Shown: positions 31,701 to 37,700 of the stretch, in pieces
Position numbering within the stretch: position 1 is the stretch's first letter
How the letters are laid out: every line of letters starts with the position of its first letter
Source of the DNA: Hydrolagus affinis
Lineage: Eukaryota
DNA: 64,000 nucleotides
Direction of reading: 5' to 3'
Assembly: GCA_012026655.1 (NCBI GenBank)
Contig: JAAILG010000144.1
Coordinates: 1 to 64,000 of the forward strand
Position numbers: made by a program

Positions 31701-34700
31701 CGGAAAGATATTCAACCAGGCAGGGCAATGCAGACAAACCCAATCTGGCCAACAGCTGAGATCCCCACATGTACACTTTCCAGCATCCGTCACTGGATAG
31801 CAATCCAGTTCAAGAGCGTTGACTTATGTTCTCCTCCCTAGCCCATGGGCACTGAGGTCAATTATAGCATCCCAGCTGCTGCTGGCCTTGCTGAGACTAG
31901 CACACACAAACACAGCCCAACACAGACTAATGTTGCACTGAATAGTACCTTGAACCCCCGAGACATCAAAAGAGTTGTCTAATTAGGTTTATTCTCAAAT
32001 TTCGAATACCAAATAATTACTCTTGACTTGTATTTGTAAGTGAAAACAGTTTTTTTTTAAATTGCATTGCAAGTTCAGTAATGCAATGGATCAACTTGTA
32101 ACTCAATGCAAGAGCTGCAGATTATCTAAAACCTGATAAGCAATCGGAAAATTACAGACACAAACCAATCATTAAGCAAACTCCACAAACATAAGGCAGT
32201 GGATTTCTTATTAAAGTGATGTATATTTAACGTTGTCCAGCAGCATGGACATCCCAGGGATAAAGGTACCATCCCATTCCCACACTTAGCTGATATGTGC
32301 TGTGTTTGCAAGTTTAGGAATGGAATTAATCATCTTCTCAACTTTAAATTTAGATTTCTACAAGAGCAACACTGTCAAGCCTAATCTATCCATATTAATA
32401 ATATTAATAATAATCCTCGCATTTGATAGAGCACCTTATCATGTTGTTCAGACAGGTCAAAGCGCTTCCCAGAATATACTGTAAAGTGGATTGACTGTGC
32501 ATTTTGTGGGCAAAATTCCTCTTAGCATTTAACTTATGTAAACTGATTTGAAAACACAGTCGCTCTTTGTGCGGTGAAGGAATAGATACACACAGCTCCT
32601 TTTGTTCATCTCAGTCAATATTTCTGTAGGAGATAACAAAATTAAAAACAAATGTTGACACACAATATGACTGACTGCTTTAGATGATGTGCTGATGTAC
32701 TGAAGCAGGCGAGATTATTTTTCTTCCCTTTTTGTGAAGACATATGAAAATGATACACACGTATATTCTAGCAGGCCTAGCCTATACAAATTTCACCATC
32801 CTGTTTGTGGTCTCCAAAGCTGCAGGAAATTCACTTCACAAAGAGTTTAATAGACTCCAGCTGGCATTAGCTGTGTTTGGACTGTGAACTTGTTAAAGTT
32901 TGCACTGAGGGAGGTAACCCTCCATGTTCAAAGAGCAACTGTGCATTTGCCTCATTTTATGTAACTGAAATGTTAAGAGCTTTAGGCCCAGAAGAAAATT
33001 GTCTGGTTATTTCTTCCATTAAAGCCACTACTGATTGATGTCAAAAGGGAAGATGAAGCCCTTAATTCTCGGACAACAGAATAATTTTAAAGTTACTGGA
33101 AATTAAATTTTATGTTGCCTACCTCTTTGTTTCATTCCCTTTCGAATGTCTCTTGATACCAGAAACTTCTCCTGCAATGTAATAAAGCCGTGACTCCACA
33201 CAAGGCAAACTCCTCAAAGAAAACAACAGCATATAAACGTATGATATCCACCCGCAGTTGGAAGGCAAACCCCACAGAGTTCAGGTACGGTCTTTTGAAA
33301 TCAGCAGGTTCTATCAAATTTCCTTCACACATTTATCGCCTTGGGATTTGATGAGAAAAGAAACTGGCTGTTTAGCATTTAGAACTATTTGACTTTATTT
33401 TCTCCCCAGCTTATTGTTCTCTGTGTGGGTGTAAATCACATAACTTGGTGAGAAGACTGAATTGCCGACTGAACTTCTGCCATGCTGTGTGCCTATATCC
33501 ATTGAAACAGTCAATTTCATTTTACACCTGATTTAAAAAGCTGGCAATGCTTAAAGGAAAACCTGAGAAAAATCAACTCTAATTACAGGTTCCAGAATGA
33601 GAAAGAGTGATAGATTTGTCATTTCTGTAGGCATTGGATTTGTTACTTGGATTCTCAGAAGACAGCTTATCATGCGAGGTACAGAGTAGCATAACAGGAT
33701 CCACTGTCTTACGTTAATTCTTACTTCTCCCACGTTGATTGCCTTAACAGTGGATCCTGGTCAATTATATAATACACACTGTCGATCTATGTTTATACCA
33801 AGTCAGTGAATTAATTATGGCAAAGAAGGGAATGCAGAAAAACGATTAGTTTGTGGGCCAGTATCAGTTCTATAATTCTAACTAAATAGCTTATCTGAAA
33901 TAATATCTTATTTCAACTGGAATGGCGGCTTCGTTCTGCTCAAAGCCACTCGAGCAACAACTAACAATCAACATAGTTTGTTTTTCATTCTGGGAGTTAG
34001 ACTTCTTGAACATATCTGAGACATCCTCCTACATCCTAACCAGCGACATAAACTCCACAGTGTATGGACAGTGAAACAATTTATGGACTTTTTTTAAATA
34101 TTAAATTTTATTAACTGTTCCTGTTCATTCACTGAATCTAGACCTTGGAACACGCCATACATATCTCACTGCAATCACAAACTGCTCCGCCAATGCCTAT
34201 GTTTATAATTGGCTTTATATATTGCGGGCTTTACCATCCCGACCTATGTTCTAAATGCTGCTGACAACACTGCACTGAGAACTCCCTCTGCATCTCATGC
34301 AGTTCTAAAAAAGGAAATATTGCCTTTTCCTCTCCATAATTAGATCTCTGTTTCAGTATCAAAATGTTCTTTGCTCTCTGAATCACCCTCATAGATAGTA
34401 GAGCACAGACAATGGTTAATTCACAATCCCTGTTTTCCTATTTCAGGATCTCCTCGGTGCAATGAACCCGGACGCCCAGGTTATGTGGAAAACACAGCAG
34501 CCAGCTCAAATGACTTGAGCACAGAATAAACAATAGTACACCATTCATATGGATGAAACGTGTACAGAACATTCACCTCATTAAAGGTTGACATATTATT
34601 GGAATCCAATTGCAGCTCGGTCTTTCTGACCCAAGCAAGAGATTATTTCCATCAAGGACAAGGCAACAAACAAGCTTTCACCCAATGGCTTGCACACTCC

Positions 34701-37700
34701 ATGCTCTCTGGCACAGGTGAACCCTGCTTATAATAGAGGACTGTTACTGGGCAGTGTACATTTGTTTGAATAGTTATCATTTGGATTTGTGTCCCACACG
34801 TTTCCTTCACCTGGTCTCCACAAAAGAGCTTGAGTAAGAAGCCAGATCAAAGGCATAGCATTAGTAATAGTTTGGTCACAACACAGTATTTATTAAGCAA
34901 GGTATTCCCCTGGCTTCCACATTTTATGTTATGTGGAGGTGTCACTGTCAAAGATTCATCGCCAGATGGTTGGTGACATTTTTCTGAGAGGTTTAGTTCC
35001 TGGAACAGCCAGGAATAGACTTCATTGAAAACTTCTGTTATGTTGGCCACAGAGCGTAGCTCACTTTGCAGCCAATGGTTAGTTGCATTATTTTTGGCAA
35101 ATTGTGTTTCAGTGGAGGGTGGGTTTTGGGGGAATGGATGAATATATAATATTCATTCTGTAGCATTTCAAAGAGTGGATAAGGTCATTGCTTGTTGAAA
35201 ATAATCTCTTGCAGTCATTTGCTTGAATTAAGCAGCTTGGGTAAGCATAGACCGCAATTGGATTCCAATAATATGTCAACCTTTACTGAAGCAATAGTTC
35301 AGAACACTGAGTAACCTATCTGGGACTCAAATGAATCAAGTTCGAAACAGGAAGAGGATTAGTGAACAAACCTACCGCATTATTTCTGAATGCCAGAGAT
35401 CCTTATTCCTTGGACGTTCATAGAATAGATGTACTCTGTGTAATTGTAACATATTTGAAATTGGAATCAAACTTTGGGACCATGTCTGCTGGATCTGAAA
35501 GGAATGGCCTCAAAGGCACAAGTGGTTTGTGGTCTTGTAGTATACTTTTTTAACTGGATAATTAATATGCCAGAGATTACAGGGTTTATTTGCAGTTAAA
35601 ACGTCAACTTAAAAAAAAAAACTGTGTCTTTTTAGGCTCCTTAGTTAAATTGTGTTAGTTGTAAGAGTATCGTCTTTATCTTTGCTGTAAACAATTTGTT
35701 TTGTTCACCACTGCATTAATAACCAAATAGGGTTTACAAGACGACAGTGATACCAGGAATCAGACTTAATCCTTTCAGTCACAAGAGCTACATCCCACTA
35801 TCAGTTTATATTCCTTGATGGAATAAATCTTACTGTTACAAAACTGATCTGTTGCGCCATTTATAATACTGTATTTGGAAATTCATTCACCAGCCATTTG
35901 AAATAACCAAACTAATTAAGGTTTTAAATATTCCGACTTTAAATTATATTTGAAATTTCAGATAATCCAAAGAATTCTTACATTTGATATAATAATAAAT
36001 AATAATAATCCTTGATATAGTGCCTTATCAGCTTGTTGAGTCATCTCAAAGTGCCTCACAGAGTAAATATTGGGGGGATTTGGGGAGGCCAAATTTGTAG
36101 GGCTACGACGAGAGAGCAGGGGAGTGGGATTAATTTGGACAGTTCTTTCAAAGAGGCGGCACAGACAAGATGGGCCAAATGGCCTCCTTCTGTGCTGTGT
36201 AATTCTATGATTCTATGATATTGTAACGTGGATTGACTGTGCATTTTGTGAGGCAAATAAATTGGAATAACTGATGTATGGATTGGAGTGTGCAAGTTTA
36301 ACAATTGAAATGGAAAGTTTCGGGTTTATCTGCGGGGATTATTAATTTTCCTAGAATCTTGATCTGCTTAATCCTTGTGTTTGATAGAACACTTTTCAAG
36401 TTCAGGAGGACGTCTCAAAGCACTTCATAGGATACAGTTTAAAGCGTACCAACTACGATGTGTACACAAACACAAAATATATCATTTTTAAACTAAATGT
36501 GATTGTTATGTTGATTTATCTGGGGGAAATGACTTTGAATTTGAAATTGTATCTTTGCTTCAGAAATCTAAACTAATCGAGATTTCATCAGTTCATCTGG
36601 GCTTGGTTATACCTGATTATATATAGTATACTGTATATGAAATGACTCAAATTGGTCTTTTTATATGCACTGGAAAACAAAGAATTTTTCCATTTGTCAA
36701 TGTTCCTGTGATATAATAGCAATCTTAAGTCTTTGGCATTAGCTTTGAGTCTGATGAATTTTGACCAGTTTAGGTCACAGCAGAATGAATCTCTGAACAC
36801 ACTGTTTGCTCATTTTTATACTGAATCCATATCTGCAACATACCTATTTTTAATGCAGATAGATGTGAATTTCATAACAAATGAGAATTTTCTTCATACT
36901 TTCGATTTTTAAAATCGGAATTTGGTGTTTCCAATTTTTAGGATGCATTTTAAGAGACCAATTTGTATGCGTTTTAATGCATTTCATATGTACCCTTCAC
37001 ACTTTCCAGACAGTGTTAGGGAGAGTGTTTTATTATGAGTTTTCAAGGAGTAACAAAAACTCATACTGGAGCAGTGTATTAAATATTTGAAATACTGCAC
37101 AAATTCTACCCTCTCTGCGTATGCATAACCATAACTCTCGCAAGAGGCAGTCAGCCTCTAACATCTATTGAAACCCATTACAATCTGTAAGGTGCCAGGC
37201 ATTCGCCTGTGATGAGCAATTATCAAGTGCAAGATGTTTTTTTGGACCATGCGATTTCAGAACCAGTGAAGTATTTTGTGATGGGAACTGTGAAAATACC
37301 ATAATTGAAACAATTATTGTGTGTAGAGTTATTTTACCTTTAACCATCGCGGAATTTGGGTAAAAGACGGAATTGTATTGGATTAATAGCAATTCTTTGT
37401 TTTTTTGTTGTTGTCGTTGATAATTCCGGTTTATTTTCCCTAGTTTTCTGGCAGTTCCTCCCCATCTGCCCCCACATGCACCAGGACATTTTCTCAGTAA
37501 AGTATCGCGAACTTTGAGAACAATTCTGCCCTCTCCACCACCCCTCGCCCACCTCTCCACCCACCTCTCCAACTGTGCCTTTCATTCCCTTTCTTCAACT
37601 TCTTGCTGGCTTCCCCCCATCATTTCTGTGAAGGGCTTTGAGACGTATAATGTGTTATGTGTGTGTGTGTATATATGTACAGTGCCACTCAGACAGGCCA

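What the first reader, a model, noticed from the sequence alone, without database searches (positions are those of the whole stretch)
34560..35307. ~750-nt fold-back with a perfect 32-bp inverted core
Seen: taaaggttgacatattattggaatccaattgc (34582-34613) is exactly complementary to 35254-35285. Pairing continues outward (34560-34570/35297-35307) and inward (34635-34656/35191-35212; about 34681-34714/35043-35079), with indels. The arms match no other repeat in this window, and I see no target-site duplication. Inference: uneven decay, with a perfect core and eroded neighbours, suggests selection on pairing or gene conversion between arms. It could be a long-range RNA duplex (ADAR substrate, splicing or polyA regulator) or an exapted ancient palindromic DNA-transposon relic. 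The enclosed region holds a minus-strand acceptor and 50-codon ORF (34847-34999, ELNLSEK...KLLLMLCL*).
Basis: partly seen in the sequence, partly recalled or inferred. Interest (0 to 1): 0.7.

Follow-up and report, generated by a model that had tools for sequence, protein, structure and literature searches.

The report
Decayed inverted-repeat element, probably transposon relic
A real pair of roughly 100-base inverted repeats with a perfect 32-base core flanks about 530 bases of unique DNA; it looks like an old, dead cut-and-paste transposon copy or a local inverted duplication, and nothing found here points to a present function.

Summary
The 32-nt perfect inverted repeat (34582-34613 / 35254-35285) is real and cannot be chance. 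It sits in arms of about 101 nt (34560-34660) and 121 nt (35187-35307). The arms match at 80 of 95 ungapped sites and differ by five indel events. The arms, interior and flanks have no other copy in the 64 kb.

The "uneven decay" is only weakly significant (P 0.012 to 0.064). Arm mismatches are mostly transversions (4 ts: 11 tv, against 101: 62 in SINE copies of the same window). None keeps pairing on the + strand. This fits arms that were never identical outside a protein-binding block better than selection on RNA pairing. Both strands fold equally well. There is no Rfam hit.

The enclosed ORF and acceptor are ordinary and have no homologue. A 9/10 direct repeat at the ends could be a 10-bp target-site duplication. 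It uses the same self-palindromic bases as the outermost inverted pair.

Copy number, orthologues and transcription could not be checked. Low interest.

The parts
34560..34660 (.). Left arm of the inverted repeat (about 101 nt)
   Evidence: Aligns to the reverse complement of 35187-35307. Ungapped blocks match at 80 of 95 sites.
35187..35307 (.). Right arm of the inverted repeat (about 121 nt). It carries a 24-nt and smaller insertions relative to the left arm.
34582..34613 (.). Perfect 32-nt core, left copy. It contains a 13-nt self-palindrome at 34598-34610 (6+6 around a central A).
   Evidence: Two matches in the window and 0 in 100 shuffles.
35254..35285 (.). Perfect 32-nt core, right copy (reverse complement of the left copy)
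34661..35186 (.). Interior of about 526 nt. It is unique in the window, not significantly palindromic, and has no recognisable coding capacity.
   Evidence: Inner inverted alignment inside the shuffle range. Unique in the window. No Pfam hit for its ORFs. No tandem repeats. CpG o/e 0.13.
34562..34571 (+). Left copy of a 10-nt direct repeat (9/10). It is a candidate target-site duplication and overlaps the outermost inverted pair.
   Evidence: The chance of >= 9/10 in the same search space was 0.021 at 2919 random pseudo-loci. It is confounded because the motif is self-palindromic.
35297..35306 (+). Right copy of the 10-nt direct repeat (9/10)
34682..34712 (.). Marginal third inward pairing segment. 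Its partner is 35046-35078.
   Evidence: 24 of 30 with two gaps. Not above chance for the whole interior. P about 0.02 in a restricted box.
34847..35152 (-). Stop-to-stop open frame of 101 codons. Judged a chance ORF and not part of any mechanism.
   Evidence: 49 ORFs of >= 90 aa in the window; no Pfam; 0 hits at E <= 0.001 among 1.84 billion representatives.

Best explanation
This is a single, immobile, decayed copy of a non-autonomous cut-and-paste DNA transposon of about 725-750 bp. It has long terminal inverted repeats of about 100-120 bp around a non-coding interior of about 530 bp.

The perfect 32-bp block is the part of the two repeats that was already identical when the copy inserted. 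It was probably the transposase-binding block, which selection keeps the same on both ends of the active family. The neighbouring parts of the arms were imperfect from the start and have since picked up indels and substitutions. At this locus it now does nothing.

What is shown: the inverted repeat and its extent, that it is unique in the window, that it has no coding capacity, and that the mismatch spectrum is odd. What is inferred: that it is a transposon, that the core was a binding site, and that the arms were imperfect at birth.
For: - Architecture: two arms of 101 and 121 nt in inverted orientation, ending at matching positions on both the outer and inner sides. They enclose an interior that is unique and not significantly palindromic.
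- No coding capacity: neither the interior nor the 101-codon frame gives a Pfam hit or a homologue.
- Both strands fold equally well (z -9.38 and -9.79). A DNA-level repeat should do this.
- Arm mismatches are 4 transitions: 11 transversions in the ungapped alignment, or 3: 9 gapped. Five well-aligned SINE copies of the same window give 101: 62 (P 0.006 and 0.0105). This fits differences that were built in rather than ordinary point decay.
- A 9/10 direct repeat of 10 nt sits exactly at the ends. The chance of this is 0.021.
- CpG o/e is 0.16 inside against 0.40-0.42 in the flanks, so the element's composition differs from its surroundings.
- Published precedent for a conserved block inside long, imperfect terminal repeats: MURA binds a conserved block of about 32 bp in Mutator TIRs of 100-500 bp (PMC3310237, passages). 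[quoted passage not shown]
Against: - No second copy exists in the 64 kb, and no genome or repeat library was on hand, so the defining multicopy property is untested.
- The candidate target-site duplication uses the same bases as the outermost inverted pair, because the motif is self-palindromic. If those bases belong to the repeat, there is no duplication. The 8 nt outside 34560 / 35307 match at 4 of 8 (read). No TA or TTAA pair falls at the repeat ends.
- The 11 nt between the outermost pair and the core match poorly, at 5 of 11 ungapped. That is odd for transposon termini.
- The transition/transversion contrast weakens to Fisher P 0.066 when the three poorly aligned SINE copies are kept, and it rests on only 12-15 sites.
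- No terminal motif could be tied to a superfamily by any tool.
Confidence: 0.5

Rival explanations
1. It is a local inverted duplication that is not a transposon. A stretch of about 100-120 bp was copied in reverse orientation about 530 bp away, by template switching at a replication fork or during break repair. The copies then decayed, and the 32-nt run is the luck of where mutations fell.
For: The arms and interior are unique in the window. There is no unambiguous target-site duplication. The run of 32 is only marginally unlikely under uniform decay (P 0.012-0.064).
Against: Ordinary decay should be rich in transitions, as in the window's SINE copies (101: 62), but the arms show 4: 11. CpG depletion covers the whole element including the interior (0.13-0.26 against 0.40-0.42 in the flanks). 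That fits one foreign insert better than a copy of local DNA.
Confidence: 0.2
2. Two separate insertions of the same short interspersed repeat of about 100-120 bp landed about 530 bp apart in opposite orientation. The interior is plain host DNA.
For: The window is crowded with interspersed repeats in both orientations; the repeat finder reports 116 inverted pairs of at least 30 nt. Each arm has sharp homology limits on both sides.
Against: No third copy of a supposedly dispersed repeat lies in 64 kb. The arms show no similarity to the window's tRNA-derived SINE family beyond shuffles. The interior is as CpG-poor as the arms.
Confidence: 0.1
3. It is a functional long-range RNA duplex. The arms pair in a transcript to form a stem of about 100 bp with a perfect 32-bp segment. 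That stem would be used as an editing substrate, a small-RNA precursor, or a regulator of splicing or polyadenylation. Selection keeps the core paired.
For: The predicted fold closes the arms on either strand with z about -9.4 to -9.8. The perfect run is somewhat longer than uniform decay predicts.
Against: There is no strand asymmetry. None of the 15 mismatches keeps pairing on the + strand, 4 do on the - strand, and 11 break it on both. No Rfam family matches. No Pfam-supported exon was found among 137 ORFs of >= 68 aa across the window and 150 ORFs of 40-67 aa within 26-44 kb, so nothing shows the region is transcribed. The enclosed acceptor and ORF are ordinary.
Confidence: 0.07
4. The core is kept identical at the DNA level in place. 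Either short-tract gene conversion acts between the arms, or each core is a bound site; each holds a 6+6 palindrome at 34598-34610.
For: The perfect 32 nt lie amid arms with about 25% events per column outside the core. There is a self-palindrome inside the core.
Against: Conversion between arms this short and this diverged is not expected (general knowledge, not tested here). No test of binding or conservation was possible. The heterogeneity is marginal.
Confidence: 0.05

Closest known systems
Non-autonomous Mutator-like elements (MULEs)
   Same: Long terminal inverted repeats: MULE TIRs are 14-500 bp, typically 100-500 bp. Their target-site duplications are 8-11 bp, and the transposase binds a conserved block of about 32 bp inside the TIR (PMC6446971 passages; PMC3310237 passages). 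Here the arms are about 100-120 bp, the identical block is 32 bp, and there is a 10-nt direct repeat at 9/10.
   Different: The direct repeat cannot be told apart from the end of the inverted repeat. No transposase or further copy is on hand. The 2019 survey found the vertebrate MuDR reports doubtful (PMC6446971), while this window looks vertebrate-like (CpG o/e 0.39). So this is a resemblance only, not membership.
Tc1/mariner elements with IR/DR ends (Sleeping Beauty type)
   Same: Long terminal repeats in which discrete transposase-binding sites are the conserved parts, and the left and right repeats are not identical (PMC7827188 passages).
   Different: The IR/DR type has repeats of about 220 bp with two binding sites per end and a TA duplication. 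Here each arm is about 100-120 bp and holds a single core with no second direct copy. No TA pair falls at the repeat ends.
hAT-type miniature elements
   Same: A small non-coding element with inverted ends. The right end, read two bases further out, resembles the terminal motif I recall for hAT; this is recalled and was not tested.
   Different: The defining 8-bp duplication is absent at 34560 / 35307 (4 of 8, read). hAT terminal repeats are usually much shorter than 100 bp (recalled).
Foldback (FB-type) elements
   Same: Long inverted arms that let the element snap back on itself.
   Different: As I recall, FB arms are built of tandem subrepeats. Tandem Repeats Finder finds none in 34300-35600, and here the arms cover only about 30% of the element.
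Inverted-repeat dsRNA editing substrates (paired SINEs in transcripts)
   Same: Two inverted copies within 1 kb that would form a long duplex if transcribed.
   Different: Those pairs are made of high-copy SINEs inside known transcripts (general knowledge). Here the arms are not SINE-related, and neither transcription nor editing could be examined.

Membership tests
Non-autonomous DNA transposon / MITE-like element (generic) | Terminal inverted repeats | tested here: met
   Arms 34560-34660 / 35187-35307 with a perfect 32-nt core.
Non-autonomous DNA transposon / MITE-like element (generic) | Target-site duplication directly outside the repeats | tested here: inconclusive
   A 9/10 direct repeat of 10 nt at 34562-34571 / 35297-35306, chance 0.021. 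The same bases also read as the outermost inverted pair. No duplication lies outside 34560 / 35307.
Non-autonomous DNA transposon / MITE-like element (generic) | Several to many copies in the genome | not testable with these tools
   Only the 64-kb window is available, and it holds no second copy. No eukaryotic genome collection or repeat library was on hand.
Non-autonomous DNA transposon / MITE-like element (generic) | No transposase coding capacity | tested here: met
   No Pfam hit for any ORF of >= 40 aa inside the element. The 101-codon frame has 0 hits among 1.84 billion representatives.
Mutator-like elements | 8-11 bp target-site duplication | tested here: inconclusive
   Confounded by the self-palindromic end.
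Mutator-like elements | Long terminal inverted repeats | tested here: met
   About 101 and 121 nt. The published range is 14-500 bp.
Mutator-like elements | A related autonomous element with a MULE transposase in the same genome | not testable with these tools
   No genome access. No transposase-like ORF in the window: 0 of 137 ORFs of >= 68 aa reach a Pfam cut-off.
Tc1/mariner IR/DR elements | TA target-site duplication at the repeat ends | tested here: not met
   TA...TA pairs occur only at 34550 / 35316, about 10 nt outside the repeat with poor pairing between, and at 34584 / 35283, inside the core.
Tc1/mariner IR/DR elements | Two direct-repeat binding sites in each terminal repeat | tested here: not met
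   No direct second copy of the core or of any arm segment.
hAT elements | 8-bp target-site duplication | tested here: not met
   The 8 nt outside 34560 / 35307 match at 4 of 8 (read). The best 8-mers all lie within the 10-nt direct repeat.
Foldback elements | Arms made of tandem subrepeats | tested here: not met
   0 tandem arrays in 34300-35600 at minimum score 30.
Any curated RNA family (Rfam 15) | Match to a covariance model | tested here: not met
   At gathering thresholds the only hits are 5 tRNA-like SINE heads elsewhere. At E <= 10 in 34300-35600 there is one chance hit, outside the arms (DLEU2_5, 17.5 bits against 40).
Structured or edited RNA duplex | Transcription, with pairing kept by compensatory or wobble changes | not testable with these tools
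   No RNA data and no orthologues. Within the single sequence, 11 of 15 mismatches break pairing on both strands.

The most novel reading that the evidence does not exclude
The two 32-bp cores are kept identical in place because they work as a pair. They could form a long-range RNA stem in an unannotated transcript, or act as two bound palindromic DNA sites brought together by the fold-back. Either way this would be an exapted remnant of a long-TIR transposon. If the 10-nt direct repeat is a true target-site duplication, that transposon would be of Mutator-like build, in a vertebrate-like genome where such elements are disputed.
Probability: 0.07. Interest if true: 0.6.

Novelty: new member of a known kind. 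Interest (0 to 1): 0.15.

Why it matters
As it stands it matters little. Inverted-repeat relics of this size are a routine part of repeat-rich animal genomes, and nothing here shows function.

It would matter in two cases. First, if orthologous loci showed the core conserved with the flanks free to vary, that would mean an exapted structure. Second, if genome-wide copies showed 9-10 bp target-site duplications, that would be evidence of Mutator-like elements in a vertebrate lineage, which a 2019 survey left as an open question (PMC6446971).

One point is useful for the scan itself. A perfect core inside imperfect arms does not alone indicate selection at the locus, because long transposon ends can be built that way.

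Tried and rejected
- Further copies in the window: blastn, nhmmer --max with a two-arm profile and a 3-mismatch pattern search found none. A 19-nt match at 35812-35830 (I3) scored E = 13 and was dropped as chance.
- Arms derived from the window's tRNA-derived SINE: the weak nhmmer hits to SINE heads (E 12-30) did not survive direct alignment against shuffles. No tRNA or Rfam match lies in the region.
- Empty-site test through paralogous flanks: the flanks are unique until a SINE at about 35960.
- Extension of the repeat outward or through the interior: not above shuffles.
- Coding exon or transposase remnant: none. No ORF reached its Pfam cut-off. Three sub-threshold hits lie elsewhere in the window: DUF5506 at 19 bits against 27, CDC37_M at 17.1 against 25, and Phospholamban at 17.3 against 25. 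One search gave 0 hits.
- Bacterial or archaeal origin or contamination: 24 nt of the core gave 0 exact matches in genome contigs.
- Host lineage from a repeat-derived ORF at 58556-58897: the search for homologous proteins found nothing at near lengths. No tool settled the lineage.
- Literature: a search for MITEs in cartilaginous fish and one for a zebrafish hairpin-forming MITE that I recalled gave nothing usable.
- Tandem subrepeats in the arms: none.
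Full report
**Context.** The window is 64,000 bases with 37.5% G+C and CpG observed/expected of 0.39. One run of N lies at 57540-57639, and I left it alone. The window is crowded with interspersed repeats. Among them is a tRNA-derived SINE family present in both orientations, five of whose heads reach the Rfam tRNA threshold. This is a methylated, repeat-rich animal genome of vertebrate type. 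I did not take it for human, because its repeats are tRNA-derived SINEs with trinucleotide tails. No tool settled the lineage (one search found nothing), and my impression of a cartilaginous fish rests on recall only.

No ORF reached its Pfam cut-off. I gave Pfam 137 stop-to-stop ORFs of at least 68 aa, taken from the 233 ORFs of at least 60 aa in the window. I also gave it 150 of the 153 ORFs of 40-67 aa that lie within 26-44 kb, out of 555 such ORFs in the whole window. The other 402 short ORFs were not scanned. So I cannot say whether the fold-back lies in an intron or between genes.

**The observation.** The 32-nt core at 34582-34613 is exactly complementary to 35254-35285. The pattern occurs only at these two places even with three mismatches allowed, and never in 100 shuffles. 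The ungapped inverted match runs over 54 nt, 34560-34613 / 35254-35307, at 85%. A second block, 34635-34656 / 35191-35212, is 91% complementary. With gaps, the arms are 34560-34660 and 35187-35307. That alignment has 100 columns with 12 substitutions and 5 indel events, one of them a 24-nt insertion in the right arm. In ungapped blocks 80 of 95 sites match.

Beyond the arms there is no inverted similarity above shuffles. The outer flanks score 14 against 12.95 +/- 1.86. The interior scores 14 against 10.6 +/- 1.55, with a shuffle maximum of 18.5. It is marginal only in a box chosen afterwards (21 and 22 of 1000 shuffles). The arms, interior and flanks are otherwise unique in the window.

**Is the decay uneven?** I placed the observed events at random along the alignment. 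A clean run of at least 32 then arises with P = 0.012 when indels count as events, and P = 0.064 for substitutions alone. That is suggestive at most, and the test was chosen after the run had been seen.

The kind of difference is more telling. Of the 15 ungapped mismatches, 4 are transitions and 11 transversions; in the gapped alignment the split is 3: 9. Five well-aligned SINE copies in the same window differ from their majority base by 101 transitions and 62 transversions. This gives P = 0.006 and 0.0105. If I keep three further copies that aligned poorly (65-67% identity), the background becomes 244: 222 and the Fisher P rises to 0.066. So the differences between the arms do not look like ordinary point decay of a once-perfect repeat. 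Either the arms were never identical outside the core, or part of the alignment is not homologous.

**RNA reading.** Both strands fold with the arms closed and with the same excess stability. The + strand gives -275.5 kcal/mol against -210.0 +/- 7.0, z = -9.38. The - strand gives -243.9 against -189.9 +/- 5.5, z = -9.79. Each used 20 shuffles. Any DNA-level inverted repeat would do this. None of the 15 mismatches is a G-U wobble on the + strand, 4 are on the - strand, and 11 break the pair on both. Rfam gives nothing at gathering thresholds. At E <= 10 it gives one chance hit outside the arms.

**The enclosed ORF.** The window holds 49 frames of at least 90 codons. A simple scan finds 215 acceptor-like sites of equal or better quality, and 43 of them are followed by at least 50 open codons. 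The frame has no Pfam match and no hit at E <= 0.001 among 1.84 billion protein representatives. I searched it as one frame. I built no spliced model and took no joined-exon step.

**The ends.** A scan of boundary offsets found a 10-nt direct repeat, 34562-34571 and 35297-35306, matching at 9 of 10. The same search space gives 9/10 or better at 2.1% of 2919 random pseudo-loci. These bases are also the outermost inverted pair (9 of 11), because the motif is self-palindromic. There are two ways to read this:
- They are the tip of the inverted repeat, and the element has no duplication. The 8 nt outside match at 4 of 8 (read).
- They are a 10-bp duplication of a palindromic target, and the element runs from 34572 to 35296.

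The second needs a 6+6 palindrome in the host site. I lean slightly to the first but cannot decide. No TA or TTAA pair falls at the ends of the repeat. Under either reading, the 11 nt next to the core match poorly.

**What it most likely is.** The build is two long inverted arms with matching limits, a non-coding unique interior, and a composition unlike the flanks (CpG o/e 0.16 against 0.40-0.42). That is the build of a non-autonomous cut-and-paste transposon.

A perfect block inside imperfect long ends is a known design. MURA transposase binds a conserved block of about 32 bp inside Mutator repeats of 100-500 bp, which come with 9-11 bp duplications (PMC3310237, passages read; PMC6446971, passages read). 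Sleeping Beauty has ends of about 220 bp with discrete binding sites, and its left and right ends are not identical (PMC7827188, passages read). I therefore read the core as the former transposase-binding block, inherited identical on both ends, and the rest as built-in imperfection plus later decay. My confidence is about 0.5.

This is a resemblance in how it works, not membership:
- The Tc1/mariner IR/DR features (a TA duplication, two sites per end) and the hAT 8-bp duplication were tested and not met.
- Foldback-type subrepeats are absent.
- The Mutator-type duplication is inconclusive, and the 2019 survey judged vertebrate Mutator reports doubtful.

**Rivals.**
- A non-transposon inverted duplication (0.2).
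- Two independent insertions of one short repeat (0.1).
- A functional RNA duplex (0.07).
- Maintenance in place by gene conversion or protein binding (0.05).

**What stayed unchecked.** I could not examine genome-wide copy number, matches to Dfam or Repbase, orthologous loci, RNA-seq, small RNAs or editing. The only DNA collection open to me held bacteria and archaea, and it had no match to the core. I read no supplementary files. The supplementary tables of PMC6446971 may list chordate hits that bear on the Mutator comparison.

**Verdict.** It is most simply an old inverted-repeat relic with no sign of present function. Interest is low (0.15). It would be a new, unclassified member of a known kind.

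Noticed in passing
window 14790-15105, 18375-18695, 20033-20350, 27742-28047, 48558-48885, 62644-62970 (+); 45170-45300, 53850-53980, 61580-61770 (-): A tRNA-derived SINE family of about 320 nt with trinucleotide (ATT-type) tails, in both orientations. Five heads reach the Rfam tRNA gathering score. Five copies are 87-93% identical to their majority base.
   Followed up: partly
window 2247-2307, 7315-7375, 8372-8458, 13814-13874, 15481-15567, 38621-38681, 46572-46666; inverted at 58881-58967: A second interspersed repeat family with at least 7 direct copies and an inverted one (families D10 and D19, pairs I12, I17, I25). Not classified.
   Followed up: no
window 58483-58934 (+): Three overlapping frames are open for 104-136 codons and are rich in proline and serine. 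The stretch is next to the inverted copy of the second repeat family. One frame (58556-58897) had no homologue at near lengths.
   Followed up: partly
window 34560-35307 against the flanks 33000-34559 and 35308-36800: The fold-back is more CpG-depleted (5 CpG, o/e 0.16) than its flanks (0.42 and 0.40) and the window as a whole (0.39).
   Followed up: partly
window 12026-12156: An AT-rich tandem array with a period of about 18-20 nt (family D17).
   Followed up: no
window 31400-32000 and 37400-38000: Two patches of 44-49% G+C in a 37% background. The second has open frames on both strands (37168-37581 on -, 37424-37921 on +) with no Pfam match.
   Followed up: no
window 57540-57639: A run of 100 N directly upstream of a SINE tail. 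Left as it is.
   Followed up: no
window 34598-34610 and 35257-35269: Each 32-nt core holds a 13-nt self-palindrome (6+6 around one central base). For this reason the two arms also show a 12-nt direct match (family D1).
   Followed up: no
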